This document shows positions 34,876 to 60,100 of a stretch of DNA of 64,000 nucleotides, piece by piece. How positions within the stretch are numbered: position 1 is the stretch's first letter; every line of letters begins with the position of its first letter. The DNA comes from Gammaproteobacteria bacterium (GTDB lineage Bacteria; Pseudomonadota; Gammaproteobacteria; Eutrophobiales; Eutrophobiaceae): assembly GCA_965220815.1 (NCBI GenBank), contig OZ244846.1, positions 1,987,620-2,051,619 on the forward strand, given 5' to 3'. A program made the position numbers and the translations under genes. Under the pieces are notes generated by a model, which had not been told where the DNA came from, did not search any database, and saw only the letters and a program-made list of their open reading frames with translations.

Positions 34876-34885
34876 AAAAATATCT

Positions 34886-38730: not shown

Positions 38731-38749
38731 GCGCAGCGCCAGCGCAACA

Positions 38750-38780
38750 AAAAACCCCGGCCTGCCCCGGGGTTTTTTTA
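38750..38780 (+). terminator. rho-independent terminator after fae
   Basis: AAAAACCCCGGcctgccCCGGGGTTTTTTTAT. Confidence 0.85.
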
Positions 38781-38857: not shown

Positions 38858-38887
38858 TTGAATTTCAGATTACCATTCTGCTACAAT
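38858..38887 (+). promoter_or_regulatory. candidate sigma70 promoter for the giant gene
   Basis: TTGAAT, 18-nt spacer, TACAAT. Confidence 0.3.
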
Positions 38888-39016
38888 GGGATGAGTACAT
38901 AAGATGCAAGATTACAATGAAGATGTCGTATATGATTTTAAGTCACCTGATCTCCAGGAGGGCACAGTTTTTCCTAGTTAAACAGGGTGTTACCGCGCCC
39001 TGCATGATCTGTTTTA

Positions 39017-39032
39017 CCCCCCCCCCCCCCCC
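39017..39032. repeat. homopolymeric C16 tract in the leader of the giant gene
   Basis: 16 consecutive C read directly, 121 nt upstream of the ATG at 39154. Confidence 0.9.
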
Positions 39033-39153
39033 AACTAAATCCGAGCGCTTACGTACAAGCTATAACCGGCTGCCTTCCCGATCGGACTGGCGCCGGATAA
39101 ATTAGCCGCGCCTGAACCGGTCTTTCAGTATTCCCCACCTGAGCGTCCGCATC

Positions 39154-42100
39154 ATGCGAGTGGACACACTCATAGCACCTGAAACCCTCCTCCGCGCACT
39201 TCTGGCTTGCGCCGGTGGTATCGGGTGCTTGTTGCTGGCGGGATTTCTGGCCGCGTTGCCGGGAGGAGTGGTAGCGCAGCAGGCGCCTTCGGTTTCTATT
39301 ACCAAACCAGCAGGTTCGGTGACAGAAGGAGAGACGGTGACTTTCACCGTAAGCAGGATCGGAGACAGTTCACAAGAACTGAGAGTGAACTTCGAAACTC
39401 AGGATGGAGATACAGGTGGAAATGCCTTTTTCACTGATGCAGTAGCGGGAAGTGACTATACGAGAGTATCCCGCACCCTTACCTTTCCAGCAGGAAACTC
39501 CCAGTCCCAGACAATTTCGGTGCAGACGCTGTCTGACGACGTTTATGAACCACTAGAATATTTCCATATAAGAGCGGTTGTCACCTACAACGATGGAGAA
39601 AAAGATATTACTCGTACTGTGCTTTCTCGCGATCAAAGAATCAGAGAAGCCCAGCAGAGATATCTTACCCTCAAACCTGTTTCATCATCGAGTTACTCCA
39701 TTCCTGAGTTCAGAGCAAAAGAAGGAGAGGAAAATAAGCTGACAATCGAACTTAACGAGCCTCTTCCATACGACCTGAGTATCACCTACACCGTCGGCAA
39801 CACGCTTCATACAACTGCCGAAAAGGGCAAAGACTACACGATGGAAACGGGTACAAAAACGATATCCAGCGGTCAGAAGTCTACCACCCTTATGCTCGAT
39901 ATCAAAGATGATGATGAGGTCGAACCGGATGAATACTTCACGATATTGTTTACTGAAATCGGAAAGGCTAATCCCCTGACTGTTCAAGAAACATACAACG
40001 AAGTTAGCTTTCAAGAAGGAAGCAACCTTTCCGTCCTCATTGAGGATAACGATTCGGGAGAGGGTGCCGTTTACTTGCGTGGGCAAGCGAGGAGTGGTCA
40101 ACTATCTGGCTATCCGGTCACCCGCAATACCCTTACCGAAGGTCAAAGCACAACTATCTACGCAGAAATAGCAGGTGGCGCGCCAAGCACAAGTATTAAC
40201 ATTCCACTCGAGGTCACAGGCTACCCATCAGGTGAAGTAACATCGGGCGACTACAGTATTCCCCCCTCTATACAAATCGCAGCCGGCGACAAAACCGGCA
40301 GCGTTACGCTGAGCATCACAGACGACGCCGTAGACGAGCGCTTCCGTGAATTGCTGGTCGTCAAAATTGATAATGCAGTGACTTCGACCGGCTACAGCAA
40401 GGGAGACCGTAGCGAGTTCCATGTCGTCATGGAGGATAACGACAAGACCGTAGTAGTGCTGAAGAACGAGGACAGAGAGGTCGCCTTGTCGGAGAATTCG
40501 GGCAAGCGGAAGACAACATTTGACATTGTGTTGGCGCGCATACCCAAACCAACTGCTAGCGGACCTCCCGGCTTTGATGTTGATATTAATGAAAGCGATC
40601 CCAAATTCACTCTAACTTATAAGGGCGAAGCAACACACGGTTCCGACTACAGAGCCACCACCTCAGTTCCAGGCTCAGACACGCGCTGCGGCAATACCGG
40701 TAACGATCCTAAAAATTCGAATCACATCTGCACCGTAACGCTCACGGTACTAGATGACAACCTGTATGAAGGGGGAGCCAAAACGACCGAAAAAATCAGT
40801 ATCAGCCTGGCAGGCGGGATGTTTAACGACGGCTTAGATCCCGCCACCAGCACGCCGATCAAACTTACGATTGAAGATAACGATACGCAACCCACGTTTT
40901 CCATCGAAGACGTCTCGGTCACTGAGGACGACCCGGCAAAATTCACAATCTCCCGTAGCGGCGCCAAGGAGAACAGGATTTCAGTACGCGCAAAGACTGC
41001 AATGGGCGGGTCGAACCCTGCACAATCCGCTGATTATGCCGCGCGCACACACACAGTGACCCTTGGCTCAGGCGTTATGAGTAACACTTTTCAAGTTGCG
41101 ATAACAGATGACATTATTCACGAGCCCGGTCCTCCCGAAACCTTTCTGGTAAAGCTGGACCAACCCAAAGACATCGGAGGTCTGCCTCCCCCCGCTATTG
41201 AGGATGACGAGGCTACCGGCACTATCAACGACAATGACGAAAAACCCTCAGCGCTTGAGATCACGGTAGATACCAACACCGCTACCAACGCTGACGATAC
41301 CAACATCGCCGAGGCCGCAGGCGAGACCGACGTCAAGGTTACCGCCACCATCACCAGCGGCACTCGTTTTGCCACCGCGCAAACTGTGGCTGTTACCGTG
41401 GGCAATAGTGACAACGACAATGAAGCCGTCGAGGGCACAGACTACGGCAATGTAGCCGGTTTTGACATCACCATCCCCGCAGGTCAGGCCAGTGGTACTC
41501 ACACTTTCAAACTGACGCCCACTGACGACGATATCGATGATGATAATGAAAAAATCAGTGTCGAAGGCGCTCTCGATGATTTAACCGTTACCCATGCCGC
41601 CATCACGATTGTGGATGACGACACCCGCGGCATTACCGTGGCGCCTGCCAGCCTGACCCTGGATGAGAAGGACGACTCGAATACCGCCACCAGCCAGGAA
41701 AACCAGGGCACCTACGATGTGGTACTTACCAGCGAACCTACGGGAGGCGAGGTGACGGTAAACGTTGCAAGCGGTGATGGAACTGTTGCCACGGTGGATA
41801 AGGCCAGCCTGACGTTCGATGCGACCAACTGGAAAACGGCACAGACTGTTACCGTGACCGCCCAGGACGACCCCATCGACAACACCGGCGATAAGCGCGA
41901 GACCACCATCATCCACACAGTCAGCGCCGCTGACACGGACTATGAAGGAGAGAAGGCAGAATCTGTCGATGTAACCGTCACCGACGACGACGCCGCGCCC
42001 ATGGCGCTCACGCTCAAGGTAGATACCGACGCCACTACTATCGGTGATCAGACCAACATAAACGAGGGCACCGGCTCACCCACCGTCTCACACACCGTGA

Positions 42101-45100
42101 CTGTCACCGCCACCCTGGACGGCGACACCCGTTTCGCCACCGAGCAGACCATCAACGTCACCGTAGGCGCCGCGAGTGACAGCGCCACCGAAGGAAGCGG
42201 CGGCGACTACGACACGGTGGCGGACTTCGAGATCACGCTGGATGCCAGTGAGGGAAGCGCTTCCAAGACGTTCATATTTACCCCTGATCCTGACAGCGTG
42301 GACGAACCGGATGAGACAATCAGCGTCAACGGTGTACTCTCCGGCGTAACGGTTGCAGGCACAACTATCACGCTCGAAGATGATGACGATACCCCCACAG
42401 TCACATTGGCGCTCGCGCCCGCATCGATAAACGAGAGCGGCGCCACCAACGCCAGCACGGTCACGGCCACGCTGAACGGCACATCCAGCGAGGCTGTGAC
42501 CCTCACTGTCTCCGCCACGCCGGTCTCGCCCGCGGTCGCAAGCGACATCACCTTGAGCAATAACAAAACACTGACAATCCCGGCTCTCTCTACAGACAGC
42601 ACCGGCGTCGTCACCATCACCGCGGTCGATAACCACGTGGACGCGGACAACAAGACAGTCACCGTTTCAGCCACTGCCTCAGGTGGCAACGGCCTTGCAG
42701 CGCCGGATGATGTAACTCTCACGATCACAGACGACGACGAACGCGGCATTAATGTGTCAAAGACAACATTGACGTTGGATGAGGCAGACGACACGGACAC
42801 CATGGACGCTGACGAGCATGAGGACACGTATAACGTCGTGCTCGAGAGTGAACCCACGGGCGGTACGGTGACGATAAATGTCGCAAGTGGCGATACGGAT
42901 ATAGCTATTGTCGCCCCGGCGAGTCTCACTTTTAATTCCTCCAACTGGAAGACGCCGCAACCAGTTACCGTCACCGCCGTACCCAACACGGCCGACGACC
43001 CGATGAACAGGCGCCTTGTCACTATTACCCACACCGTCAGCGCCGAGGGTACGGACTACGAGAGCGAAACCGCAAGCAACGTGGAAGTAACGGTAAACGA
43101 CGACGATGGAGCGCCATCGATGTCCATCAACCGCCCATCCGTGACCGAGGGTGACAGCGCCACGGCAACACTCACCTTCACAGTACGTCTGACACCGGCC
43201 AGCGGGAACCAGGTGACAGTAGCCTACGCGGACGCCGGCAGCGGCACCGCAACCTCAGCCACGGACTACGCAGCGTTGACTGCAGGTACGCTTACCTTTG
43301 CCCCCGGCGATACCAGCAAGCCTGTAGCGGTAACGGTGAACGGCGATGTGCTGGATGAGCCCGACGAAACGGTGGTCTTACGCCTGTCCTCGCTTGTCAA
43401 TGCCGTGTTTACGGGTGTAGCGGGGACCACTCTGGACGGCACAGGCACCATCACAGATAACGATCCGACACCAACGGTTTCAGTCTCCGACGCCACGGCA
43501 GTGAACGAAGGCAACGTGATGTCACCTGATCCTCCCAACAACATGACCTTCACGGTACAACTCTCCGCCGTAAGCGGCCAGACCGTGACAGTGCCCTACA
43601 CCCTGGGAGGGACAGCCACAGCCGGCGAGGATTACATCGAGCCTAACCCGCGCTCCGTCACCATCGCCGCAGGTTCCCCGTCTGCAACGATCACAATCCC
43701 CGTGAAAGGCGACGAGGTGGACGAGGATAACGAGACGGTGATAGTGACGCTGGGCACACCGACGAACGCAACAGTATCGACTGCCGAAGGCGCCGCCACT
43801 GCCACTGGAACGATCACGGACGATGACACCCGCGGCATCACCGTGATGCCGCTCACGCGCACCTTGGACGAGGTGGACAACACGGCCACCGACGCCATAA
43901 CGGAAAACCAGGCCACCTACACGGTGGTGCTTGACAGCCAGCCCACCGGCACCGTGACCGTCAACCTGGCCAGCAAGGACGGGACGGTGGCCACGGTCGG
44001 CACGGCCCGCCTGGAGTTCACCACCGGCAACTGGAACACGGTGCGCACGGTGACCATCACCGCGGTGCCGGACATCATCGACAACACCGGCAACCGGCGC
44101 ACGGTGGACATCGAGCACACGGTCAGCGCCGCCGGCACGGACTACAGTGGGGAGCGCGCGGCCAGCGTGGCCGTCACGGTCACGGACGACGATGCTGCAC
44201 CCAGCGGCATCACCCTCACGGCTAGCCCTGACTCGGTGGCGGAGGAGGGCGGCGCAGAGACCATCACCGTCACCGCCGCGGTAAACGGGATAACCCGTTA
44301 TGCGGAAGCCAAGACCGTGACGGTGAGTGTCGGCGGCGGTTCGGCCATCTCAGGCGCGGACTATATGACGGTGTCCAATTTCAATATTACCATTCCCGCG
44401 GGCGCGGCCAGTGAGGCTGAAACGTTCACGCTGACGCCGGCTAGTGACGTGCTGCACGAGGGCAATGAGACACTCAACGTAATGGGAACTCTGACCGGAA
44501 TCACGATAACCCCGGATGAGATTACCATCACCGATAATGACGCGGCGCCCACAGCGCTGACGTTGACAGTGGATGCTGACACGGGCACGGACAACGTGCA
44601 AAGCAGCATTGCCGAGGATAGTGGCGCCAAGACGGTGCGGGTGACGGCAACGCTGGATGGCAGTTCACAGTTTACCACTGATAAGACCGTTTCGGTGGAG
44701 GTGGGCAAGTCGGGCGACTCGGCCGGTGAAGGCTCGGACTATGCCACGGTTGGCGCCCTGACCATTACGATCAAAGCCGGGACATCGAGCGCGCACGTGG
44801 ACTTCACGCTCACGCCCACCAACGACGTGCTGGATGAGGAGAACGAGATCATCAGTCTTGACGGCACCGCGACGGGGCTGATGGTGGCCGATGCGGAGAT
44901 TACCCTGACCGACGATGACGCCACGCCCACTGGCATCACGCTGACGGTAGATACCAACGGCGCGACCGCCGGCACGCCGGACACGGTAGGCGAGGGTGCC
45001 GGGGCCACCACAGTCACCGTCATCGCCGCGGTCAACGGGACCACCCGTTACGTGGACGCCAAGACGGTGGCGGTGAGCGTGAGTGACGATGAAGCAACCT

Positions 45101-48100
45101 CACCAGCCGACTACGCGGCGGTGTCCAATTTTAACATTGTCATCCCCGCGGGCGCGGCCAGCCACACCAACACGTTTACCCTCACGCCCGTGAACGACAA
45201 CCTGGACGAGGAGAATGAAACGATAGACGTGACAGGCACGGTTCCCGGTTCCATCACTGTTACGCCTGCCACGGTAAGCCTCACCGACAATGACGACCCG
45301 CCCATTTTTTCCATTGCCGGTGACGCCGCGTCCGAGGGCGATGCGATTGACTTTGTTGTGACCCGCGGCGGGGCCACGGCGAACGTGGCGACGGTCAAGA
45401 TTGCCACCGCCGCCCATTCAGGTGACGATGTGAATCCTGCCGGCGCCGACGATTACACCGCGATTACAACAGCACAGACACTCAGTTTCGCCAGTGGGGA
45501 TACCAGCCAGACCGTCTCGGTACAGACGACCGAGGACGATTTATATGAGGAAGACGAGACCTTCCTGGCAGTACTGAGCGAGCCGGCGCTGGCGGAGGGA
45601 GACCCGGGCACGGGGGTGAGCATTGCGCCCAACGCCGGCAGCGCCACGGGCACGATACGGAACGATGATACCGAGCCGTCGTTTTCCATTACCGATGCCA
45701 GCGCCTCGGAAGGCGATGCCATCACCTTCACGGTGACCCGTTCCGGGGCCATGGACAATGCCGTGTCGGTATCCTGGAACACCAAGCCGGCGACCGGCGC
45801 CAATGCGGCTGCGACCTCAGATTACACGCCGGTAACAACGCCGACTCAACTGGACTTTGGCGCCGGTGTGGGCAGGGTGACGTTCACGGTCAGCACCACG
45901 GAGGACGTACTGGACGAGGGCAATGAGACCTTCCTGGTGGAGTTGACGAGTCCGGTAGGCGGCGCCATCACCACCGACGAGGCGACCGGTACTATCAACG
46001 ATGATGACGATGCACCGACTGGCATAACCTTGACAGTGGACGAGAACTCGTTCGCGGAGAATGCGGACACCGCAACGGTGACCGTCACTGCCACGGTCAC
46101 GGGCGGCACCACCTTTGCCGATACGAAGACAGTGGTGGTGAGCGTGGACGATGGCACGGCGATTTCTGGCACCGACTATGCAGCGGTGCCCGGCTTCAAC
46201 ATCGCCCTCGCTGTCGGCGCCGAGAGTGCCACCGGAACATTCAGCTTCAAACCGACGGACGACGAACTGGACGAGCCGAATGAGACACTGGACGTGACTG
46301 GGACCCTGACGGATGTGACGATCACGAAGGCCACGATCACGATCAACGACAATGATACGACGCCGAGTTTCAAGGTAGGGGATGCAAGTGCCGCGGAAGG
46401 GGAGGCATTGAGTTTCGTGGTGACGCGGGACGGTGCGACGGCAAACGTGGTGACGGTGGATTGGGCGACGGCGTTGGTGGACGGCGAGGCGTCAGCGATG
46501 GACTTCACAGCGGTGCCGGCAACGACGTTGACCTTTGCGGCGGGGGACACGACGAAGATGGTGACGGTGATGTCGACGGAGGACGTGCTGGACGAGGAGG
46601 ACGAGACGTTCGAGGTCAAGCTGACCAACCCGGCCAAGGGTGCGAGTGACCCGGGCAGCGTCCCGACGATCAGCGATGACACGGGTGAGGGGACCATCAC
46701 CGACGATGACGCGGCGCCGATGACGATGACCCTGACGGTGGATGCGGACACGGCCACGAACAACGTGCAGGGCAGCCTGGCCGAGGACGGCGGGGCGAAG
46801 ACGGTGCGGGTCACGGCCGCGATTACCGGCGCCACCCGCTTTGCCGCCGCGCAGACGGTGAGCGTGGCGGTGGGCAAGGCGATGGACAGCGCCCGGGAGG
46901 GGACGGACTACGCCACGGTGGCCGACCAGACCATCACGATTGCGGCGGGGGCGGCCAGCGGGCAGGTGGACTTCACGCTGACGCCCACGGACGATGACAT
47001 CGACGAGCCGAACGAGACGATAAGCATCGCGGGCACGCTGGCCGGTGTGACGTTCACCGACACCGTCATCACCATTACGGACGATGAGGCCCTGCCGACG
47101 CTGAGCCTGGCGCTCGGCGCAGCGTCGATTAACGAGAGCGGCAACGGCAACAGCACCGCGGTGACGGCGCGCTTGTCGGGCAAGTCCAGCGTGGACGTGA
47201 CGGTGGCGGTGGGCACGGCGCCGGGGGCGGACACGACCACCGGCGATTACACGGTGAGCGCCAACACGACGCTGACGATTGCCGCGGGGTCGACGGCGAG
47301 CACGGGGGAGGTGACCATCACCGCAGTCGATAACAAGGTGGACGCCCCGAACAAGAGCGTGACGGTCTCGGGCACGGCCAGTGGCGGCGGGGTGGCGAAC
47401 CCGGGCAACCAGACGTTGACCATCACGGACGATGACACCCGCGGCATCACCGTGACGCCGCTCACGCGCACCCTGGACGAGGTCGATGACGCGGACACCG
47501 ACGACGCTACGGAAAACCGGGCCACCTACACGGTGGTGCTCGACAGCGAGCCCACCGGCACCGTGACCGTCAACCTGGCCAGCAAGGACGGGACGGTGGC
47601 CACGGTCGGCACGGCCAGCCTGGTCTTCACCACCGCCGACTGGAACACGGTGCGCACGGTGACCGTCACCGCGGTGCCGGACATCATCGACAACACCGGC
47701 AATGCGCGCACGGTGGACATCGAGCACACGGTGGTGGCGGCGGGCACGGACTACGAGGACGAGAGTGCGGCCAGCGTGACCGTCACGGTCACCGACGATG
47801 ACGCGGCGCCGATGACGATGACCCTGACGGTGGATGCGGACACGGCCACGAACAACGTGCAGGGCAGCCTGGCCGAGGACGGCGGGGCGAAGACGGTGCG
47901 GGTCACGGCCGCGATTACCGGCGCCACCCGCTTTGCCGCCGCGCAGACGGTGAGCGTGGCGGTGGGCAAGGCGATGGACAGCGCCCGGGAGGGGACGGAC
48001 TACGCCACGGTGGCCGACCAGACCATCACGATTGCGGCGGGGGCGGCCAGCGGGCAGGTGGACTTCACGCTGACGCCCACGGACGATGACATCGACGAGC

Positions 48101-51100
48101 CGAACGAGACGATAAGCATCGCGGGCACGCTGGCCGGTGTGACGTTCACCGACACCGTCATCACCATTACGGACGATGAGGCCCTGCCGACGCTGAGCCT
48201 GGCGCTCGGCGCAGCGTCGATTAACGAGAGCGGCAACGGCAACAGCACCGCGGTGACGGCGCGCTTGTCGGGCAAGTCCAGCGTGGACGTGACGGTGGCG
48301 GTGGGCACGGCGCCGGGGGCGGACACGACCACCGGCGATTACACGGTGAGCGCCAACACGACGCTGACGATTGCCGCGGGGTCGACGGCGAGCACGGGGG
48401 AGGTGACCATCACCGCAGTCGATAACAAGGTGGACGCCCCGAACAAGAGCGTGACGGTCTCGGGCACGGCCAGTGGCGGCGGGGTGGCGAACCCGGGCAA
48501 CCAGACGTTGACCATCACGGACGATGACACCCGCGGCATCACCGTGACGCCGCTCACGCGCACCCTGGACGAGGTCGATGACGCGGACACCGACGACGCT
48601 ACGGAAAACCGGGCCACCTACACGGTGGTGCTCGACAGCGAGCCCACCGGCACCGTGACCGTCAACCTGGCCAGCAAGGACGGGACGGTGGCCACGGTCG
48701 GCACGGCCAGCCTGGTCTTCACCACCGCCGACTGGAACACGGTGCGCACGGTGACCGTCACCGCGGTGCCGGACATCATCGACAACACCGGCAATGCGCG
48801 CACGGTGGACATCGAGCACACGGTGGTGGCGGCGGGCACGGACTACGAGGACGAGAGTGCGGCCAGCGTGACCGTCACGGTCACCGACGATGACGCGGCG
48901 CCGATGACGATGACCCTGACGGTGGATGCGGACACGGCCACGAACAACGTGCAGGGCAGCCTGGCCGAGGACGGCGGGGCGAAGACGGTGCGGGTCACGG
49001 CCGCGATTACCGGCGCCACCCGCTTTGCCGCCGCGCAGACGGTGAGCGTGGCGGTGGGCAAGGCGATGGACAGCGCCCGGGAGGGGACGGACTACGCCAC
49101 GGTGGCCGACCAGACCATCACGATTGCGGCGGGGGCGGCCAGCGGGCAGGTGGACTTCACGCTGACGCCCACGGACGATGACATCGACGAGCCGAACGAG
49201 ACGATAAGCATCGCGGGCACGCTGGCCGGTGTGACGTTCACCGACACCGTCATCACCATTACGGACGATGAGGCCCTGCCGACGCTGAGCCTGGCGCTCG
49301 GCGCAGCGTCGATTAACGAGAGCGGCAACGGCAACAGCACCGCGGTGACGGCGCGCTTGTCGGGCAAGTCCAGCGTGGACGTGACGGTGGCGGTGGGCAC
49401 GGCGCCGGGGGCGGACACGACCACCGGCGATTACACGGTGAGCGCCAACACGACGCTGACGATTGCCGCGGGGTCGACGGCGAGCACGGGGGAGGTGACC
49501 ATCACCGCAGTCGATAACAAGGTGGACGCCCCGAACAAGAGCGTGACGGTCTCGGGCACGGCCAGTGGCGGCGGGGTGGCGAACCCGGGCAACCAGACGT
49601 TGACCATCACGGACGATGACACCCGCGGCATCACCGTGACGCCGCTCACGCGCACCCTGGACGAGGTCGATGACGCGGACACCGACGACGCTACGGAAAA
49701 CCGGGCCACCTACACGGTGGTGCTCGACAGCGAGCCCACCGGCACCGTGACCGTCAACCTGGCCAGCAAGGACGGGACGGTGGCCACGGTCGGCACGGCC
49801 AGCCTGGTCTTCACCACCGCCGACTGGAACACGGTGCGCACGGTGACCGTCACCGCGGTGCCGGACATCATCGACAACACCGGCAATGCGCGCACGGTGG
49901 ACATCGAGCACACGGTGGTGGCGGCGGGCACGGACTACGAGGACGAGAGTGCGGCCAGCGTGACCGTCACGGTCACCGACGATGACGCGGCGCCGATGAC
50001 GATGACCCTGACGGTGGATGCGGACACGGCCACGAACAACGTGCAGGGCAGCCTGGCCGAGGACGGCGGGGCGAAGACGGTGCGGGTCACGGCCGCGATT
50101 ACCGGCGCCACCCGCTTTGCCGCCGCGCAGACGGTGAGCGTGGCGGTGGGCAAGGCGATGGACAGCGCCCGGGAGGGGACGGACTACGCCACGGTGGCCG
50201 ACCAGACCATCACGATTGCGGCGGGGGCGGCCAGCGGGCAGGTGGACTTCACGCTGACGCCCACGGACGATGACATCGACGAGCCGAACGAGACGATAAG
50301 CATCGCGGGCACGCTGGCCGGTGTGACGTTCACCGACACCGTCATCACCATTACGGACGATGAGGCCCTGCCGACGCTGAGCCTGGCGCTCGGCGCAGCG
50401 TCGATTAACGAGAGCGGCAACGGCAACAGCACCGCGGTGACGGCGCGCTTGTCGGGCAAGTCCAGCGTGGACGTGACGGTGGCGGTGGGCACGGCGCCGG
50501 GGGCGGACACGACCACCGGCGATTACACGGTGAGCGCCAACACGACGCTGACGATTGCCGCGGGGTCGACGGCGAGCACGGGGGAGGTGACCATCACCGC
50601 AGTCGATAACAAGGTGGACGCCCCGAACAAGAGCGTGACGGTCTCGGGCACGGCCAGTGGCGGCGGGGTGGCGAACCCGGGCAACCAGACGTTGACCATC
50701 ACGGACGATGACACCCGCGGCATCACCGTGACGCCGCTCACGCGCACCCTGGACGAGGTCGATGACGCGGACACCGACGACGCTACGGAAAACCGGGCCA
50801 CCTACACGGTGGTGCTCGACAGCGAGCCCACCGGCACCGTGACCGTCAACCTGGCCAGCAAGGACGGGACGGTGGCCACGGTCGGCACGGCCAGCCTGGT
50901 CTTCACCACCGCCGACTGGAACACGGTGCGCACGGTGACCGTCACCGCGGTGCCGGACATCATCGACAACACCGGCAATGCGCGCACGGTGGACATCGAG
51001 CACACGGTGGTGGCGGCGGGCACGGACTACGAGGACGAGAGTGCGGCCAGCGTGACCGTCACGGTCACCGACGATGACGCGGCGCCGATGACGATGACCC

Positions 51101-54100
51101 TGACGGTGGATGCGGACACGGCCACGAACAACGTGCAGGGCAGCCTGGCCGAGGACGGCGGGGCGAAGACGGTGCGGGTCACGGCCGCGATTACCGGCGC
51201 CACCCGCTTTGCCGCCGCGCAGACGGTGAGCGTGGCGGTGGGCAAGGCGATGGACAGCGCCCGGGAGGGGACGGACTACGCCACGGTGGCCGACCAGACC
51301 ATCACGATTGCGGCGGGGGCGGCCAGCGGGCAGGTGGACTTCACGCTGACGCCCACGGACGATGACATCGACGAGCCGAACGAGACGATAAGCATCGCGG
51401 GCACGCTGGCCGGTGTGACGTTCACCGACACCGTCATCACCATTACGGACGATGAGGCCCTGCCGACGCTGAGCCTGGCGCTCGGCGCAGCGTCGATTAA
51501 CGAGAGCGGCAACGGCAACAGCACCGCGGTGACGGCGCGCTTGTCGGGCAAGTCCAGCGTGGACGTGACGGTGGCGGTGGGCACGGCGCCGGGGGCGGAC
51601 ACGACCACCGGCGATTACACGGTGAGCGCCAACACGACGCTGACGATTGCCGCGGGGTCGACGGCGAGCACGGGGGAGGTGACCATCACCGCAGTCGATA
51701 ACAAGGTGGACGCCCCGAACAAGAGCGTGACGGTCTCGGGCACGGCCAGTGGCGGCGGGGTGGCGAACCCGGGCAACCAGACGTTGACCATCACGGACGA
51801 TGACACCCGCGGCATCACCGTGACGCCGCTCACGCGCACCCTGGACGAGGTCGATGACGCGGACACCGACGACGCTACGGAAAACCGGGCCACCTACACG
51901 GTGGTGCTCGACAGCGAGCCCACCGGCACCGTGACCGTCAACCTGGCCAGCAAGGACGGGACGGTGGCCACGGTCGGCACGGCCAGCCTGGTCTTCACCA
52001 CCGCCGACTGGAACACGGTGCGCACGGTGACCGTCACCGCGGTGCCGGACATCATCGACAACACCGGCAATGCGCGCACGGTGGACATCGAGCACACGGT
52101 GGTGGCGGCGGGCACGGACTACGAGGACGAGAGTGCGGCCAGCGTGACCGTCACGGTCACCGACGATGACGCGGCGCCGATGACGATGACCCTGACGGTG
52201 GATGCGGACACGGCCACGAACAACGTGCAGGGCAGCCTGGCCGAGGACGGCGGGGCGAAGACGGTGCGGGTCACGGCCGCGATTACCGGCGCCACCCGCT
52301 TTGCCGCCGCGCAGACGGTGAGCGTGGCGGTGGGCAAGGCGATGGACAGCGCCCGGGAGGGGACGGACTACGCCACGGTGGCCGACCAGACCATCACGAT
52401 TGCGGCGGGGGCGGCCAGCGGGCAGGTGGACTTCACGCTGACGCCCACGGACGATGACATCGACGAGCCGAACGAGACGATAAGCATCGCGGGCACGCTG
52501 GCCGGTGTGACGTTCACCGACACCGTCATCACCATTACGGACGATGAGGCCCTGCCGACGCTGAGCCTGGCGCTCGGCGCAGCGTCGATTAACGAGAGCG
52601 GCAACGGCAACAGCACCGCGGTGACGGCGCGCTTGTCGGGCAAGTCCAGCGTGGACGTGACGGTGGCGGTGGGCACGGCGCCGGGGGCGGACACGACCAC
52701 CGGCGATTACACGGTGAGCGCCAACACGACGCTGACGATTGCCGCGGGGTCGACGGCGAGCACGGGGGAGGTGACCATCACCGCAGTCGATAACAAGGTG
52801 GACGCCCCGAACAAGAGCGTGACGGTCTCGGGCACGGCCAGTGGCGGCGGGGTGGCGAACCCGGGCAACCAGACGTTGACCATCACGGACGATGACACCC
52901 GCGGCATCACCGTGACGCCGCTCACGCGCACCCTGGACGAGGTCGATGACGCGGACACCGACGACGCTACGGAAAACCGGGCCACCTACACGGTGGTGCT
53001 CGACAGCGAGCCCACCGGCACCGTGACCGTCAACCTGGCCAGCAAGGACGGGACGGTGGCCACGGTCGGCACGGCCAGCCTGGTCTTCACCACCGCCGAC
53101 TGGAACACGGTGCGCACGGTGACCGTCACCGCGGTGCCGGACATCATCGACAACACCGGCAATGCGCGCACGGTGGACATCGAGCACACGGTGGTGGCGG
53201 CGGGCACGGACTACGAGGACGAGAGTGCGGCCAGCGTGACCGTCACGGTCACCGACGATGACGCCGCGCCGGGCGGGATTGCGCTCTCGGTCTCCCCGGC
53301 CTCGGTGGGCGAGGGGGCCGGGGAGACGGAGGTGACGGTGACGGCCACGGTGGGCGGGGCCTCCCGTTACGAGGCGGCGCAGACGGTGGCGGTGAGCGTG
53401 GGCGGGGGTACGGCCACCGCCCCGGCGGACTATGCGGCGGTGGCGGGGTTTAACATTGTCATTGCCGCGGGGGCGGTGAGCGCGACCGGCACGTTCGACC
53501 TGACGCCGGTGGACGATGCGCTGGCGGAGGGCAACGAGACCATCGACGTGACGGGCGTCGCCGGCGCGCTGGACGTGACCGACACGGAGATTACCCTTAA
53601 CGACGATGACACCGCGCCCACGGCGCTGACCCTGACGGTGGATGCGGACACGGCCACGAACAACGTGCAGGGCAGCCTGGCCGAGAACGGCGGGGCGAAG
53701 ACGGTGCGGGTGACGGCGACCCTGGACGGGGCCGGGCGCTTTACCGAGGCCAAGACCGTGACGGTGGCGGTGGGCAAGAACACGGACGGCGCCCGGGAGG
53801 GGACGGACTACGCCGTTGTCGCCGACCTGAGCATCGTGATTGCGGCGGGGGAAGGCAGCGCGCACGCGGACTTCACGCTGACGCCGACCGATGACGCCCT
53901 GGCGGAGGGCAGCGAGACGATAAGCATCGCGGGCACGGTGGCCGGGCTGAGTGTCACCGACACTGAAATTACCCTTAACGACGATGACGTGGCGCCCACG
54001 GGCATCACGGTCACGGTGGACGTGGACCCGGACACGGTCGGCGACCAGACCAGTCTGGCCGAGGACGCCGGGGCGCGCACGGTGACGGTGACCGCCGCGG

Positions 54101-57100
54101 TGAACGGGGCGACCCGTTACGTGGCGGCGACGACGGTGGCGGTGGCGGTGGGCAAGGCGGATGACGGGGCCACGGAGGGCACGGACTACGCCAACGTGGC
54201 CGACCTCAGCCTGACGATTGCGGCCGGTGAGCAGAGCGCCAGCGCCACGTTCACGCTGACGGTGACGGACGATGCCTTTAACGAGGGCAACGAGACCATC
54301 AGCGTGGACGGCACGGCGGGCACGCTGAGCGTGACCGATGCGGAAATCACCATTAACGACGATGACGCCGCGCCGGGCGGGATTGCGCTCTCGGTCTCCC
54401 CGGCCTCGGTGGGCGAGGGGGCCGGGGAGACGGAGGTGACGGTGACGGCCACGGTGGGCGGGGCCTCCCGTTACGAGGCGGCGCAGACGGTGGCGGTGAG
54501 CGTGGGCGGGGGTACGGCCACCGCCCCGGCGGACTATGCGGCGGTGGCGGGGTTTAACATTGTCATTGCCGCGGGGGCGGTGAGCGCGACCGGCACGTTC
54601 GACCTGACGCCGGTGGACGATGCGCTGGCGGAGGGCAACGAGACCATCGACGTGACGGGCGTCGCCGGCGCGCTGGACGTGACCGACACGGAGATTACCC
54701 TTAACGACGATGACACCGCGCCCACGGCGCTGACCCTGACGGTGGATGCGGACACGGCCACGAACAACGTGCAGGGCAGCCTGGCCGAGAACGGCGGGGC
54801 GAAGACGGTGCGGGTGACGGCGACCCTGGACGGGGCCGGGCGCTTTACCGAGGCCAAGACCGTGACGGTGGCGGTGGGCAAGAACACGGACGGCGCCCGG
54901 GAGGGGACGGACTACGCCGTTGTCGCCGACCTGAGCATCGTGATTGCGGCGGGGGAAGGCAGCGCGCACGCGGACTTCACGCTGACGCCGACCGATGACG
55001 CCCTGGCGGAGGGCAGCGAGACGATAAGCATCGCGGGCACGGTGGCCGGGCTGAGTGTCACCGACACTGAAATTACCCTTAACGACGATGACGTGGCGCC
55101 CACGGGCATCACGGTCACGGTGGACGTGGACCCGGACACGGTCGGCGACCAGACCAGTCTGGCCGAGGACGCCGGGGCGCGCACGGTGACGGTGACCGCC
55201 GCGGTGAACGGGGCGACCCGTTACGTGGCGGCGACGACGGTGGCGGTGGCGGTGGGCAAGGCGGATGACGGGGCCACGGAGGGCACGGACTACGCCAACG
55301 TGGCCGACCTCAGCCTGACGATTGCGGCCGGTGAGCAGAGCGCCAGCGCCACGTTCACGCTGACGGTGACGGACGATGCCTTTAACGAGGGCAACGAGAC
55401 CATCAGCGTGGACGGCACGGCGGGCACGCTGAGCGTGACCGATGCGGAAATCACCATTAACGACGATGACGCCGCGCCGGGCGGGATTGCGCTCTCGGTC
55501 TCCCCGGCCTCGGTGGGCGAGGGGGCCGGGGAGACGGAGGTGACGGTGACGGCCACGGTGGGCGGGGCCTCCCGTTACGAGGCGGCGCAGACGGTGGCGG
55601 TGAGCGTGGGCGGGGGTACGGCCACCGCCCCGGCGGACTATGCGGCGGTGGCGGGGTTTAACATTGTCATTGCCGCGGGGGCGGTGAGCGCGACCGGCAC
55701 GTTCGACCTGACGCCGGTGGACGATGCGCTGGCGGAGGGCAACGAGACCATCGACGTGACGGGCGTCGCCGGCGCGCTGGACGTGACCGACACGGAGATT
55801 ACCCTTAACGACGATGACACCGCGCCCACGGCGCTGACCCTGACGGTGGATGCGGACACGGCCACGAACAACGTGCAGGGCAGCCTGGCCGAGAACGGCG
55901 GGGCGAAGACGGTGCGGGTGACGGCGACCCTGGACGGGGCCGGGCGCTTTACCGAGGCCAAGACCGTGACGGTGGCGGTGGGCAAGAACACGGACGGCGC
56001 CCGGGAGGGGACGGACTACGCCGTTGTCGCCGACCTGAGCATCGTGATTGCGGCGGGGGAAGGCAGCGCGCACGCGGACTTCACGCTGACGCCGACCGAT
56101 GACGCCCTGGCGGAGGGCAGCGAGACGATAAGCATCGCGGGCACGGTGGCCGGGCTGAGTGTCACCGACACTGAAATTACCCTTAACGACGATGACGTGG
56201 CGCCCACGGGCATCACGGTCACGGTGGACGTGGACCCGGACACGGTCGGCGACCAGACCAGTCTGGCCGAGGACGCCGGGGCGCGCACGGTGACGGTGAC
56301 CGCCGCGGTGAACGGGGCGACCCGTTACGTGGCGGCGACGACGGTGGCGGTGGCGGTGGGCAAGGCGGATGACGGGGCCACGGAGGGCACGGACTACGCC
56401 AACGTGGCCGACCTCAGCCTGACGATTGCGGCCGGTGAGCAGAGCGCCAGCGCCACGTTCACGCTGACGGTGACGGACGATGCCTTTAACGAGGGCAACG
56501 AGACCATCAGCGTGGACGGCACGGCGGGCACGCTGAGCGTGACCGATGCGGAAATCACCATTAACGACGATGACGCCGCGCCGGGCGGGATTGCGCTCTC
56601 GGTCTCCCCGGCCTCGGTGGGCGAGGGGGCCGGGGAGACGGAGGTGACGGTGACGGCCACGGTGGGCGGGGCCTCCCGTTACGAGGCGGCGCAGACGGTG
56701 GCGGTGAGCGTGGGCGGGGGTACGGCCACCGCCCCGGCGGACTATGCGGCGGTGGCGGGGTTTAACATTGTCATTGCCGCGGGGGCGGTGAGCGCGACCG
56801 GCACGTTCGACCTGACGCCGGTGGACGATGCGCTGGCGGAGGGCAACGAGACCATCGACGTGACGGGCGTCGCCGGCGCGCTGGACGTGACCGACACGGA
56901 GATTACCCTTAACGACGATGACACCGCGCCCACGGCGCTGACCCTGACGGTGGATGCGGACACGGCCACGAACAACGTGCAGGGCAGCCTGGCCGAGAAC
57001 GGCGGGGCGAAGACGGTGCGGGTGACGGCGACCCTGGACGGGGCCGGGCGCTTTACCGAGGCCAAGACCGTGACGGTGGCGGTGGGCAAGAACACGGACG

Positions 57101-60100
57101 GCGCCCGGGAGGGGACGGACTACGCCGTTGTCGCCGACCTGAGCATCGTGATTGCGGCGGGGGAAGGCAGCGCGCACGCGGACTTCACGCTGACGCCGAC
57201 CGATGACGCCCTGGCGGAGGGCAGCGAGACGATAAGCATCGCGGGCACGGTGGCCGGGCTGAGTGTCACCGACACTGAAATTACCCTTAACGACGATGAC
57301 GTGGCGCCCACGGGCATCACGGTCACGGTGGACGTGGACCCGGACACGGTCGGCGACCAGACCAGTCTGGCCGAGGACGCCGGGGCGCGCACGGTGACGG
57401 TGACCGCCGCGGTGAACGGGGCGACCCGTTACGTGGCGGCGACGACGGTGGCGGTGGCGGTGGGCAAGGCGGATGACGGGGCCACGGAGGGCACGGACTA
57501 CGCCAACGTGGCCGACCTCAGCCTGACGATTGCGGCCGGTGAGCAGAGCGCCAGCGCCACGTTCACGCTGACGGTGACGGACGATGCCTTTAACGAGGGC
57601 AACGAGACCATCAGCGTGGACGGCACGGCGGGCACGCTGAGCGTGACCGATGCGGAAATCACCATTAACGACGATGACGCCGCGCCGGGCGGGATTGCGC
57701 TCTCGGTCTCCCCGGCCTCGGTGGGCGAGGGGGCCGGGGAGACGGAGGTGACGGTGACGGCCACGGTGGGCGGGGCCTCCCGTTACGAGGCGGCGCAGAC
57801 GGTGGCGGTGAGCGTGGGCGGGGGTACGGCCACCGCCCCGGCGGACTATGCGGCGGTGGCGGGGTTTAACATTGTCATTGCCGCGGGGGCGGTGAGCGCG
57901 ACCGGCACGTTCGACCTGACGCCGGTGGACGATGCGCTGGCGGAGGGCAACGAGACCATCGACGTGACGGGCGTCGCCGGCGCGCTGGACGTGACCGACA
58001 CGGAGATTACCCTTAACGACGATGACACCGCGCCCACGGCGCTGACCCTGACGGTGGATGCGGACACGGCCACGAACAACGTGCAGGGCAGCCTGGCCGA
58101 GAACGGCGGGGCGAAGACGGTGCGGGTGACGGCGACCCTGGACGGGGCCGGGCGCTTTACCGAGGCCAAGACCGTGACGGTGGCGGTGGGCAAGAACACG
58201 GACGGCGCCCGGGAGGGGACGGACTACGCCGTTGTCGCCGACCTGAGCATCGTGATTGCGGCGGGGGAAGGCAGCGCGCACGCGGACTTCACGCTGACGC
58301 CGACCGATGACGCCCTGGCGGAGGGCAGCGAGACGATAAGCATCGCGGGCACGGTGGCCGGGCTGAGTGTCACCGACACTGAAATTACCCTTAACGACGA
58401 TGACGTGGCGCCCACGGGCATCACGGTCACGGTGGACGTGGACCCGGACACGGTCGGCGACCAGACCAGTCTGGCCGAGGACGCCGGGGCGCGCACGGTG
58501 ACGGTGACCGCCGCGGTGAACGGGGCGACCCGTTACGTGGCGGCGACGACGGTGGCGGTGGCGGTGGGCAAGGCGGATGACGGGGCCACGGAGGGCACGG
58601 ACTACGCCAACGTGGCCGACCTCAGCCTGACGATTGCGGCCGGTGAGCAGAGCGCCAGCGCCACGTTCACGCTGACGGTGACGGACGATGCCTTTAACGA
58701 GGGCAACGAGACCATCAGCGTGGACGGCACGGCGGGCACGCTGAGCGTGACCGATGCGGAAATCACCATTAACGACGATGACGCCGCGCCGGGCGGGATT
58801 GCGCTCTCGGTCTCCCCGGCCTCGGTGGGCGAGGGGGCCGGGGAGACGGAGGTGACGGTGACGGCCACGGTGGGCGGGGCCTCCCGTTACGAGGCGGCGC
58901 AGACGGTGGCGGTGAGCGTGGGCGGGGGTACGGCCACCGCCCCGGCGGACTATGCGGCGGTGGCGGGGTTTAACATTGTCATTGCCGCGGGGGCGGTGAG
59001 CGCGACCGGCACGTTCGACCTGACGCCGGTGGACGATGCGCTGGCGGAGGGCAACGAGACCATCGACGTGACGGGCGTCGCCGGCGCGCTGGACGTGACC
59101 GACACGGAGATTACCCTTAACGACGATGACACCGCGCCCACGGCGCTGACCCTGACGGTGGATGCGGACACGGCCACGAACAACGTGCAGGGCAGCCTGG
59201 CCGAGAACGGCGGGGCGAAGACGGTGCGGGTGACGGCGACCCTGGACGGGGCCGGGCGCTTTACCGAGGCCAAGACCGTGACGGTGGCGGTGGGCAAGAA
59301 CACGGACGGCGCCCGGGAGGGGACGGACTACGCCGTTGTCGCCGACCTGAGCATCGTGATTGCGGCGGGGGAAGGCAGCGCGCACGCGGACTTCACGCTG
59401 ACGCCGACCGATGACGCCCTGGCGGAGGGCAGCGAGACGATAAGCATCGCGGGCACGGTGGCCGGGCTGAGTGTCACCGACACTGAAATTACCCTTAACG
59501 ACGATGACGTGGCGCCCACGGGCATCACGGTCACGGTGGACGTGGACCCGGACACGGTCGGCGACCAGACCAGTCTGGCCGAGGACGCCGGGGCGCGCAC
59601 GGTGACGGTGACCGCCGCGGTGAACGGGGCGACCCGTTACGTGGCGGCGACGACGGTGGCGGTGGCGGTGGGCAAGGCGGATGACGGGGCCACGGAGGGC
59701 ACGGACTACGCCAACGTGGCCGACCTCAGCCTGACGATTGCGGCCGGTGAGCAGAGCGCCAGCGCCACGTTCACGCTGACGGTGACGGACGATGCCTTTA
59801 ACGAGGGCAACGAGACCATCAGCGTGGACGGCACGGCGGGCACGCTGAGCGTGACCGATGCGGAAATCACCATTAACGACGATGACGCCGCGCCGGGCGG
59901 GATTGCGCTCTCGGTCTCCCCGGCCTCGGTGGGCGAGGGGGCCGGGGAGACGGAGGTGACGGTGACGGCCACGGTGGGCGGGGCCTCCCGTTACGAGGCG
60001 GCGCAGACGGTGGCGGTGAGCGTGGGCGGGGGTACGGCCACCGCCCCGGCGGACTATGCGGCGGTGGCGGGGTTTAACATTGTCATTGCCGCGGGGGCGG

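What the first reader, a model, noticed from the sequence alone, without database searches (positions are those of the whole stretch)
38917..39153. C16 homopolymer in the leader of the giant gene: a candidate slipped-strand phase-variation switch
Sixteen consecutive C (39017-39032) lie between a TTGAAT-18-TACAAT promoter-like site (38858-38887) and the giant gene ATG (39154).
Homopolymeric G/C tracts of this length in promoters or leaders of surface-protein genes are classic contingency loci (Neisseria, Haemophilus, Bordetella).
The tract also sits inside a 62-codon ORF (38917..39105) that reads it as PPPPP and ends at a TAG in the same frame as the giant gene. Length changes of +/-1 would alter this putative leader peptide and its stop.
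Basis: partly seen in the sequence, partly recalled or inferred. Interest (0 to 1): 0.65.

Follow-up and report, generated by a model that had tools for sequence, protein, structure and literature searches.

The report
Hypermutable poly-C switch before giant gene
A run of 16 C's sits in the transcribed leader of a giant (>8,000 aa) surface-protein gene; related bacteria (by their record names, sponge symbionts) keep an uninterrupted repeat at the same spot but with a different length each time, which is the signature of a mutational switch for a costly surface protein, although no effect on expression has been measured.

Summary
C16 lies at 39017-39032, the only homopolymer longer than 8 nt in the 64 kb window (0.0007 runs of this length expected by chance). 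It sits 129 nt downstream of a TGnTACAAT extended -10 and 121 nt upstream of the ATG of a Calx-beta repeat gene of more than 8,282 codons.

The phase-variation reading is supported by comparison, not by experiment.
- The same promoter-leader-gene module occurs in six other assemblies. Each has a pure C tract at the same position, with lengths 10, 11, 13, 13, 15 and 24.
- Two strains that are 96.5% identical over 649 nt differ by a single indel, the tract itself (C10 versus C13).
- Homologues of the gene in other MAGs (record names point to sponge symbionts) have unrelated leaders that carry other repeats: poly-G (8-16), a second poly-C (11 and 19) or perfect (GAGCCGCC)n arrays (3-21 copies).
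- All 14 homopolymers of 9 nt or more in 275 kb of fetched DNA lie upstream of this gene family.

The tract is not in a promoter spacer and not inside the giant ORF. How its length affects expression is unknown. An ORF that reads the tract as poly-proline is open in 5 of 6 lineages, but it shows no Shine-Dalgarno sequence and no peptide conservation.

Verdict: a new member of a known kind (simple-sequence-repeat contingency locus in a 5' leader) in a new biological setting. No expression effect has been measured.

The parts
38749..38778 (+). Rho-independent terminator of the upstream fae gene; marks the 5' boundary of the spacer
   Evidence: Terminator scan. It is conserved, with compensatory changes, in L001, L002, L004, L008, L015 and L025.
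38858..38887 (+). Predicted sigma-70 promoter: TTGAAT, 18-nt spacer, TG-extended -10 (TGCTACAAT, 38879-38887). The transcription start is inferred at about 38894.
   Evidence: Promoter scan. The block ATTYTGCTAnAAT is conserved in all six lineages with this leader, and homology between lineages begins about 45 nt upstream of it. No transcription-start data were available.
38888..39153 (+). Conserved leader of about 265 nt (inferred 5' UTR) of the giant gene
   Evidence: An nhmmer profile of the leader matches the window, L001/L003, L025, L008, L011 and L015 with E-values from 1e-70 to 1e-98, and matches nothing else. In L011 the leader follows a tRNA-Thr gene instead of fae.
38917..39105 (+). 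Candidate upstream ORF of 62 codons (a second in-frame ATG lies at 39004). It reads the tract as poly-proline and stops 48 nt before the giant ATG.
   Evidence: An ATG-to-tract frame this long appears in only 5-16% of dinucleotide shuffles per lineage. There is no Shine-Dalgarno sequence, no excess of third-position substitutions, and a TAG breaks it in L001. Its status is uncertain.
38980..39014 (+). Predicted hairpin immediately 5' of the tract (AAACAG...CTGTTT with an inner helix)
   Evidence: RNAalifold. Pair counts: 96% of cells paired in helices 1-2, with 2 compensatory pairs. Absent from L011 because of a deletion.
39017..39032 (+). C16 homopolymer, the hypermutable simple-sequence repeat
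   Evidence: Homologous tracts are C10 (L025), C11 (L015), C13 (L001/L003), C15 (L011) and C24 (L008).
39066..39096 (+). Conserved hairpin 3' of the tract (CCGGCTGCC...GGCGCCGG)
   Evidence: RNAalifold. Helix 3 has 87% of cells paired and 2 pairs changed on both sides.
39154..64000 (+). 5' part of the giant gene: a signal-peptide-like N-terminus followed by Calx-beta repeats, more than 8,282 codons, running off the window
   Evidence: 18 Calx-beta stretches in total.

Best explanation
The C16 run is a slippage-prone simple-sequence repeat in the transcribed leader of a giant secreted or surface Calx-beta protein gene. It acts as a contingency locus.

Replication slippage changes the tract length at high frequency. 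This is established knowledge for G/C homopolymers of 10 nt or more. Different lengths are then expected to give different expression of the gene, which is over 25 kb long, so that a clonal population always contains cells with and without (or with more and less of) this costly, host-exposed protein.

Shown here:
- The tract is real.
- It lies between the only conserved promoter element and the start codon.
- It is kept pure and at the same position in six lineages.
- Its length differs in every lineage, including between near-identical strains.

Inferred:
- The leader is transcribed from the conserved extended -10.
- Tract length changes expression.

My preferred coupling mechanism is speculative. 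An upstream ORF reads the tract. With C16 its ribosomes travel to within 48 nt of the giant start. A +1 change (C17) would stop them at a TAA directly after the tract. That would leave about 115 nt of C-rich, G-poor leader untranslated and exposed to Rho-dependent termination or to folding around the start codon. Changes of 3 nt would instead alter the number of consecutive prolines, and with it possibly ribosome stalling.
For: 1. The tract is far beyond chance: it is unique in the window, with 0.00066 expected.

2. It sits in a conserved promoter-leader-gene module, with tract lengths 10, 11, 13, 15, 16 and 24, all uninterrupted.

3. L025 and L001 are 96.5% identical over 649 nt, and their only indel is C10 versus C13.

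4. Repeats have arisen convergently upstream of homologous genes:
- Poly-G of 8, 9, 10, 10, 12 and 16 nt. Four of these loci have upstream flanks that are 99-100% identical and free of gaps.
- A second poly-C type, C11 and C19, placed 21 nt before the start codon.
- Perfect 8-mer arrays of 3 to 21 copies.

5. All 14 homopolymers of 9 nt or more in 275 kb of fetched DNA are these tracts.

6. Every proline codon in the tract is CCC in all lineages, although CCN would encode the same peptide. This argues that the DNA homopolymer is what is maintained, not the prolines.

7. The leader is better conserved than the gene. Between L025 and L001 the promoter is 100% identical, the leader 94-97%, and the coding sequence 70% falling to 56%. 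Known phase-variable adhesins such as uspA1 show the same pattern (PMC7302503).

8. Experimentally shown precedents for repeats upstream of, or in the leader of, adhesin genes:
- uspA1 G(n), 29 bp upstream of the ORF (PMC7302503).
- hmw1A heptamer repeats transcribed in the 5' UTR (PMC12721329).
- The tlpB G-repeat in the mRNA leader (PMC8295292).

9. For the upstream-ORF and Rho idea:
- The ATG frame is open from the promoter through the tract in 5 of 6 lineages, and indels within it are multiples of 3.
- In all 6 lineages it runs into one of the two long downstream frames, never the short one.
- The 78-nt window around the tract has the highest C/G ratio on the + strand of the whole window, 3.1 against a 99th percentile of 1.9.
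- The tract is predicted to be unpaired.
Against: - No read-level heterogeneity, transcription-start or expression data exist here. Every length comes from a consensus assembly, and long homopolymers are error-prone in both Illumina and HiFi consensus sequences.
- Predicted RNA folding of the leader, including pairing around the start codon, does not change with tract lengths from 8 to 24. A simple structural read-out of length is therefore not supported.
- The upstream ORF has no recognisable Shine-Dalgarno sequence and no third-position bias in substitutions. Substitutions between L015 and L008 are mostly nonsynonymous, and the ORF is interrupted in L001.
- Finding 6 of 6 lineages in a long frame has a chance probability of about 0.09-0.13.
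- The Rho idea rests on composition alone.
- One homologous locus with readable upstream sequence (L007) shows no repeat.
Confidence: 0.65

Rival explanations
1. The tract is a fixed cis-regulatory element, not a switch. In this reading the poly-C RNA, or the poly-proline it encodes, is itself the functional element. It could be a Rho loading (rut) site, a protein- or sRNA-binding site, or an EF-P-sensitive stalling leader peptide that tunes transcription of a very long gene. The length differences between lineages would be a tolerated, neutral by-product of slippage.
For: The position is conserved and flanked by two conserved hairpins. The tract is predicted unpaired and forms the strongest C-over-G region in the window. 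An ORF reads it as 3-8 prolines in every lineage. Proline-codon leader ORFs that sense translation are known from Salmonella mgtL and mgtP (my own knowledge, not checked here).
Against: Homologous genes with other leaders carry poly-G or 8-mer repeats instead. What these share is mutability, not a poly-C RNA or a proline peptide. All tracts are pure CCC, with no synonymous CCN codons and no interruptions, despite about 40% divergence in the flanks. A length range of 10 to 24 shows no length constraint. No ops or RfaH-type element is present and Rfam has no match.
Confidence: 0.2
2. It is a promoter-spacer switch of the Bordetella fim or Neisseria opc/porA type. The tract would separate a -35 or activator site (TTTACC, 39013-39018) from a -10-like hexamer (CTAAAT or TAAATC, 39035-39041), so that its length sets promoter strength.
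For: In the window TTTACC-N16/17-CTAAAT/TAAATC can be read across the tract (sequence). A hexamer of the form nAnAAT (CAGAAT, CAAAAT, CTAAAT) is conserved just 3' of the tract.
Against: The scan does not call this site, and the window's hexamer lacks the key A2 or T6. The implied spacers in relatives would be 9, 12, 19 or longer, and the -35-like hexamer is missing in L008 and L011. The strongly conserved promoter element lies 129-142 nt upstream in five of the six lineages (69 nt in L011, which carries a deletion). The whole stretch between it and the ATG is conserved like a transcribed leader, with base-pair covariation.
Confidence: 0.05
3. The tract is functionless. It would be a slippage-prone remnant that hitch-hikes with the mobile giant-gene module, or partly an assembly artefact, with no effect on expression.
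For: No functional data exist. Homopolymer lengths in consensus assemblies are error-prone. The module has moved between genomic contexts (fae versus tRNA-Thr), so a neutral passenger could spread with it.
Against: Independent assemblies from different technologies and samples all contain the tract. Neutral homopolymers decay by interruption, yet all copies are pure across flanks about 40% diverged. Four unrelated repeat solutions sit upstream of the same gene family while homopolymers are otherwise absent from 275 kb.
Confidence: 0.08

Closest known systems
Moraxella catarrhalis uspA1 G(n) tract (PMC7302503 and the Lafontaine et al. work cited there)
   Same: A G/C homopolymer lies upstream of the ORF of a large surface adhesin gene, outside the coding sequence. 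Its length differs between strains (6-11). Length sets mRNA level in a graded high/low manner. The adhesin gene itself varies greatly between strains.
   Different: The uspA1 tract is 29 bp from the ORF; this one is 121 nt from it, inside a structured leader of about 265 nt. The tract here is longer (10-24). The gene is a Calx-beta giant of over 25 kb, not a trimeric autotransporter. The organism is by inference a sponge-associated bacterium rather than a human pathogen. No expression data exist here.
Haemophilus influenzae hmw1A/hmw2A (ATCTTTC)n repeat in the 5' UTR (PMC12721329)
   Same: The repeat lies between the promoter and the start codon of a very large adhesin gene and is transcribed as part of the leader. 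Repeat number tunes expression.
   Different: The hmw repeat is a heptamer array that pairs with a G-rich arm to form a long hairpin cut by RNase III. Here the tract is predicted unpaired, has no G-rich partner, and its length does not alter the predicted fold. The (GAGCCGCC)n arrays upstream of homologues in other MAGs resemble hmw more closely.
Helicobacter pylori tlpB leader G-repeat targeted by the sRNA RepG (PMC8295292)
   Same: A variable homopolymer in an mRNA leader. Its length gives gradual post-transcriptional control.
   Different: That system needs a trans-acting sRNA with a complementary C/U-rich loop. No G-rich sRNA candidate was found here, although only the 64 kb window could be inspected.
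Bordetella fim2/fim3 poly-C and Neisseria opc/porA/fetA promoter tracts (own knowledge)
   Same: A poly-C or poly-G tract of 10-16 nt upstream of a surface-structure gene, with slipped-strand phase variation acting at the level of transcription.
   Different: In those systems the tract sets the spacing between promoter or activator elements. Here the conserved -10 lies 129 nt upstream, and no conserved hexamers flank the tract.
Proline-codon leader ORFs mgtL and mgtP of Salmonella (own knowledge)
   Same: A short ORF in a long leader with consecutive proline codons. Its translation could decide whether the downstream gene is transcribed or translated.
   Different: Those ORFs are not built on a mutable homopolymer and their function has been shown. 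Here translation of the ORF is unproven and the peptide is not conserved.

Membership tests
Simple-sequence-repeat contingency locus (slipped-strand phase variation) | An uninterrupted repeat long enough to slip (G/C homopolymer of about 8-9 nt or more) | tested here: met
   Pure C16. Homologous tracts are pure C10 to C24.
Simple-sequence-repeat contingency locus (slipped-strand phase variation) | Repeat length is polymorphic between closely related strains while the flanks are conserved | tested here: met
   L025 (C10) and L001 (C13) are 96.5% identical over 649 nt and the tract is the only indel. In the analogous poly-G loci the upstream flanks are 99-100% identical with G8, G9, G10 and G10.
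Simple-sequence-repeat contingency locus (slipped-strand phase variation) | Length heterogeneity within one population or clone | not testable with these tools
   Only consensus assemblies are available; no reads.
Simple-sequence-repeat contingency locus (slipped-strand phase variation) | The repeat is placed where its length can affect expression (promoter, leader or 5' coding region) of a surface or host-interaction gene | tested here: met
   It lies between the conserved extended -10 and the ATG of a Calx-beta giant gene that has a signal-peptide-like N-terminus. Surface location of the protein is inferred.
Simple-sequence-repeat contingency locus (slipped-strand phase variation) | Reversible on/off or graded change of expression with repeat length | not testable with these tools
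   Needs reporter fusions or transcript and protein measurements.
Promoter-spacer switch (Bordetella fim, Neisseria opc/porA) | The tract lies between the -35 or activator site and the -10 of the promoter in use | tested here: not met
   No scan hit spans the tract. The flanking hexamers are weak and not conserved, and implied spacers range from 9 to over 19 nt. The conserved -10 is 129 nt upstream.
Intragenic translational frameshift switch (opa, pilC, badE type) | The repeat lies inside the reading frame of the regulated gene | tested here: not met
   An in-frame TAG at 39103-39105 separates the tract from the giant ORF. No tract length can fuse an upstream ATG to the giant frame.
hmw-type structured 5' UTR repeat | The repeat forms a long hairpin with a complementary arm, which is processed by RNase III | tested here: not met
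   Mean pairing probability of the tract is about 0.2. The minimum free energy and the pairing of the start region are unchanged for lengths 8-24.
Leader-peptide attenuator with proline codons (mgtL/mgtP-like) | A translated short ORF with consecutive proline codons, whose translation alters the fate of the downstream gene | tested here: inconclusive
   The ORF is open through the tract in 5 of 6 lineages, with shuffle probabilities of 0.05-0.16 per lineage. It has no Shine-Dalgarno sequence, no codon-phase signal, and is broken in L001.
Any described RNA family (Rfam 15) | A match at or above the gathering score | tested here: not met
   The best hits (24 bits or less) are far below threshold and fall on the fae terminator.

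The most novel reading that the evidence does not exclude
The homopolymer would be the coding core of a phase-variable upstream ORF. Slippage by 1 nt would move the stop of a poly-proline leader peptide from about 40-50 nt before the giant start codon to directly after the tract. Slippage by 3 nt would change the number of consecutive prolines. Ribosome coverage and stalling on a C-rich, rut-like leader would then decide whether Rho aborts transcription of the gene, which is over 25 kb long. This would join slipped-strand mutation to leader-peptide attenuation, a combination I do not know to have been described. It would also be one of four convergent repeat solutions that bacteria of several classes use on a horizontally shared giant Calx-beta protein. 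That protein may mimic the sponge's own Calx-beta-rich aggregation factor.
Probability: 0.2. Interest if true: 0.8.

Novelty: new member of a known kind. Interest (0 to 1): 0.65.

Why it matters
Phase variation through simple-sequence repeats is textbook biology for mucosal pathogens. My searches of the held literature found no description of it in sponge symbionts.

Here a giant Calx-beta protein family is found in MAGs labelled Gammaproteobacteria, Alphaproteobacteria, Rhodospirillales and Paracoccaceae. It is preceded by a length-variable repeat in 20 of the 21 loci where upstream sequence could be read. There are four unrelated repeat architectures. That suggests strong, repeated selection for stochastic expression of this protein. 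Possible reasons are its cost, phage or host recognition, or interaction with the sponge's own Calx-beta aggregation factors (PMC5400394, PMC11670116).

The idea can be tested directly on existing HiFi metagenome reads. It would give symbiosis research a concrete locus where population heterogeneity is genetically programmed.

Tried and rejected
- **Exact DNA pattern scan.** The 5' flank (GCGCCCTGCATGATCTGTTTTAC) gave 0 hits in JGI metagenomes.
- **The window's own genome.** Exact-protein look-ups of the CitG-like protein (both start variants) and of the 62-aa ORF found nothing. No second assembly of the same strain could be compared.
- **Rfam.** Only sub-threshold hits, all on the fae terminator.
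- **ops/RfaH element.** None in the leader.
- **Fusion to the giant ORF.** Rejected because of the in-frame TAG at 39103.
- **Promoter-spacer model.** Rejected as the main reading.
- **Tract pairing with a G-rich arm, or length-dependent refolding around the start codon.** Not supported.
- **Peptide conservation of the upstream ORF.** Not supported. Substitutions are spread evenly over codon positions and are mostly nonsynonymous (and inspection).
- **Second metagenome scan, protein-based.** It yielded one useful locus, L022, which has an 8-mer array.
- **G-quadruplex on the template strand.** Considered and set aside, because C10 and C11 alleles are too short for a stable one (reasoning only).

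Full report
**1. Observation**

The window (61% G+C) has 16 consecutive C's at 39017-39032. It is the only homopolymer longer than 8 nt in 64 kb. An independent-base model expects 0.00066 runs of 16 or more.

Upstream lies an H4MPT-type C1 gene cluster:
- mch at 36250-37269
- a CitG-like gene at 37241-38134
- fae at 38218-38730, followed by a strong intrinsic terminator at 38749-38778

Downstream, ATG 39154 opens a frame that is still open 8,282 codons later, at the window end. It begins with a signal-peptide-like segment and consists of Calx-beta repeats.

The scan finds TTGAAT-18-TACAAT with a TG extension at 38858-38887. The 62-codon ORF 38917..39105 reads the tract as T-PPPPP. It ends at a TAG that is in frame with the giant gene and 48 nt before its ATG.

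**2. Relatives with the same leader**

An exact-protein look-up with Fae found related assemblies. Homologues of the giant protein's N-terminus are rare and about 50% identical. They come almost entirely from MAGs whose record names point to sponge symbionts: Gammaproteobacteria, Candidatus Poriferihabitaceae (order Arenicellales), Alphaproteobacteria, Rhodospirillales and Paracoccaceae. A genome note describes such Poriferihabitaceae MAGs as coming from PacBio HiFi sponge metagenomes (PMC12859430). The sponge origin of the particular accessions used here is inferred from their names.

An alignment and an nhmmer profile show one conserved module shared by the window, L001/L003, L025, L008, L011 and L015, with E-values of 1e-70 to 1e-98. 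Its parts, in order:
- an invariant extended -10, ATTYTGCTAnAAT
- about 130 nt of leader
- a pure C tract
- about 120-130 nt of well-conserved leader
- the start codon

Homology between lineages starts about 45 nt upstream of the -10. The module sits behind fae in most lineages but behind a tRNA-Thr gene in L011. Promoter, leader and gene therefore travel together.

Tract lengths in this module:

| Locus | Tract |
|---|---|
| window | C16 |
| L001/L003 | C13 |
| L025 | C10 |
| L015 | C11 |
| L011 | C15 |
| L008 | C24 |

L025 and L001 come from sister samples. They are 96.5% identical over 649 nt, and the tract is their only indel.

The leader is more conserved than the gene. Between L025 and L001 the promoter is 100% identical, the leader 94-97%, the first 300 nt of coding sequence 70% and the next 600 nt 56%.

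**3. Other repeats upstream of the same gene family**

Homologues with unrelated upstream regions carry other simple-sequence repeats.

| Repeat type | Loci and lengths | Position |
|---|---|---|
| Poly-G | L029 G8, L005 G9, L016 G10, L026 G10, L017 G12, L028 G16 | about 50 nt before a ~455-aa signal-peptide ORF that precedes the Calx-beta part |
| Second poly-C | L013 C11, L027 C19 | 21 nt before the start codon |
| Perfect octanucleotide arrays, (GAGCCGCC)n or the GAGCCGTC variant | L010 and L014 3.1 copies, L012 7.6, L022 12.9, L009 20.6, L006 21.1 | directly after a TTGACA...TAnAAT-like element |

Four of the poly-G loci have upstream flanks that are 99-100% identical and free of gaps.

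Only L007 shows no repeat. That is 20 of 21 loci with readable upstream sequence.

What the four architectures share is mutability, not any particular sequence.

**4. Where the tract acts**

It is not inside the giant ORF. The TAG at 39103-39105, in the giant frame, lies between the tract and the ATG.

It is unlikely to be a promoter spacer. The flanking hexamers are weak and not conserved, and the spacers they would imply range from 9 to over 19 nt.

It lies in what behaves like a transcribed leader. Two hairpins flank it (38980-39014 and 39066-39096). In these, 91.5% of cells are paired, against 27-43% in slid controls, and four pairs have changes on both sides. The structure was derived from the same five sequences, so this is moderate evidence only.

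Rfam has no match, and there is no ops element in the leader.

**5. How tract length might be read out**

Thermodynamic folding predicts the tract to be mostly unpaired. It predicts no change in the fold or in start-codon pairing for lengths 8-24. An hmw-like hairpin mechanism is therefore not supported.

*Observations in favour of the upstream-ORF idea*
- In each lineage exactly one frame has start codons upstream of the tract, and in 5 of 6 lineages it is open from the promoter to the tract. Dinucleotide shuffles reach this in 5-16% of trials per lineage.
- Indels within it are multiples of three: the ATG-to-tract distances are 100, 100, 97 and 109 nt.
- In all six lineages this frame continues into one of two long downstream frames that stop 25-48 nt before the giant start. 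It never enters the short frame, which stops directly after the tract, 110-115 nt before the start.
- In the window, C17 would give the short frame (AAC TAA at 39036-39038), and C15 the other long frame (TAA at 39098-39100).
- The window clade also lacks the Shine-Dalgarno-like AGGTG and the upstream ATG that the other clade has before the giant start. Its translation might therefore depend on upstream ribosomes.

*Observations against it*
- The ORF has no Shine-Dalgarno sequence.
- Substitutions are spread evenly over codon positions.
- A TAG interrupts it in L001.
- The 6-of-6 result has a chance probability of about 0.1.

The 78-nt window around the tract has the highest C/G ratio of the whole + strand, 3.1 against a 99th percentile of 1.9. 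This is compatible with a Rho loading site, but it rests on composition only.

One point favours mutability over peptide function. All proline codons are CCC in all lineages, although flanking sequence has diverged by about 40%.

**6. Comparison with known systems**

The kind is known. Examples are:
- uspA1 G(n), and an upstream 8-mer repeat at gor, in Moraxella (PMC7302503)
- the hmw1A heptamer repeat transcribed in the 5' UTR of a large adhesin gene (PMC12721329)
- the tlpB leader G-repeat read by the sRNA RepG (PMC8295292)
- intragenic homopolymers in the Bartonella adhesin gene badE (PMC11466379)

The locus meets the sequence-level criteria of a contingency locus: a long pure repeat, a regulatory position, a surface-type target gene, and length polymorphism between near-identical strains. 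It fails the criteria of the promoter-spacer, intragenic and hmw-hairpin subtypes. The functional criteria (within-population heterogeneity and length-dependent expression) could not be tested.

I found no paper describing phase variation in sponge symbionts. Sponge aggregation factors are themselves rich in Calx-beta domains (PMC5400394, PMC11670116), which makes host mimicry or host interaction by this protein a reasonable lead.

**7. Verdict**

| Reading | Confidence |
|---|---|
| Tract length varies at high frequency | about 0.9 |
| Functional contingency switch of the giant gene | about 0.65 |
| Fixed cis-element whose length variation is incidental | 0.2 |
| Functionless remnant or artefact | 0.08 |
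| Promoter-spacer switch | 0.05 |

It is a new member of a known kind, in a new biological setting and with notable convergence. Interest is 0.65. The most novel reading the evidence does not exclude is a phase-variable poly-proline upstream ORF gating Rho-dependent attenuation, at probability about 0.2.

Noticed in passing
L006 892-1060; L009 3348-3512; L010 3491-3515; L012 3515-3575; L014 3488-3512; L022 21-123: Perfect octanucleotide tandem arrays, (GAGCCGCC)n or the GAGCCGTC variant, with 3 to 21 copies. They lie a few hundred nt upstream of homologous giant Calx-beta genes in other MAGs, directly after a conserved TTGACA...TAnAAT-like element whose spacer is unusually long (20-23 nt). An ORF starting at the adjacent ATG reads the array as SRRAAEPP repeats. 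It is in a long open frame in L006, L010 and L014 but not in L009.
   Followed up: partly
L029 1079-1086; L005 2581-2589; L016 2553-2562; L026 1065-1074; L017 2542-2553; L028 1056-1071: Poly-G tracts of 8, 9, 10, 10, 12 and 16 nt lie about 50 nt upstream of a ~455-aa signal-peptide ORF that precedes the Calx-beta gene. The 400-nt upstream flanks are 99-100% identical among four of the loci, while the downstream gene is 86-93% identical.
   Followed up: partly
L013 3156-3166; L027 1796-1814: A fourth architecture: poly-C (C11 and C19) lying 21 nt before the ATG of a 435-aa signal-peptide ORF of the same locus family. The upstream flanks are 98.5% identical.
   Followed up: partly
window 46492-63984 (- strand) and 46974-63383 (+ strand): The giant gene contains long runs of near-identical tandem repeats, with a period of 1092 nt from about 46970 to 52850 and of 1104 nt from about 53430 to 63380. 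This was seen as periodic pattern hits. The antisense strand carries a stop-free ORF of 5,830 codons, most likely a shadow of the repeats.
   Followed up: no
L025 versus L001 (L025 1-2275): The leader is 94-100% identical between the two strains, but identity collapses about 146 nt into the giant gene, to 70% and then 56%, with a stretch that does not align. This suggests allele replacement by recombination, or diversifying selection, downstream of a conserved control region.
   Followed up: partly
L011 3605-3680: In this MAG a tRNA-Thr(CGT) gene, not fae, lies directly upstream of the promoter-leader-giant gene module. Together with the spread of the gene family over several bacterial classes, this points to horizontal transfer of the whole module.
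   Followed up: partly
L005 5435-7686; L026 3935-6180: In two poly-G loci the Calx-beta gene is only 448 aa long and is followed directly by two tyrosine-integrase genes. The giant gene may have been truncated by an integrative element.
   Followed up: no
window 7700-7711 (+): A perfect match to the ops/RfaH recruitment consensus, GGCGGTAGTTTG, ends at the first base of the ORF 7711-8601. About 0.1 exact matches are expected by chance in the window (for the match; the expectation is my own estimate).
   Followed up: no
window 2065-2091, 7662-7689, 21716-21743, 21850-21876, 24351-24441, 24577-24602: Short 9-10-nt tandem motifs of the type CACAGATKA / CGCAGATAAA, and their reverse complements (for example TAATCTGTGT, CATCTGCGCT), recur at several sites. 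They may be a dispersed repeat or a regulator binding motif.
   Followed up: no
window 34680-34781: Three direct copies of the 20-mer TTACAGGACACCCATGTAAA are followed by two inverted copies, just beside the 3' end of the minus-strand ORF 34853-36127.
   Followed up: no
window 39139-39156 compared with L001, L008, L011 and L015: In the other lineages an in-frame ATG lies 15 nt upstream of the aligned start codon; in L008, L011 and L015 it is preceded by an AGGTG Shine-Dalgarno-like sequence. In the window that codon is CTG. The Shine-Dalgarno-like sequence is absent from the window, L001 and L025, so the giant gene in this clade has no obvious ribosome-binding site.
   Followed up: partly
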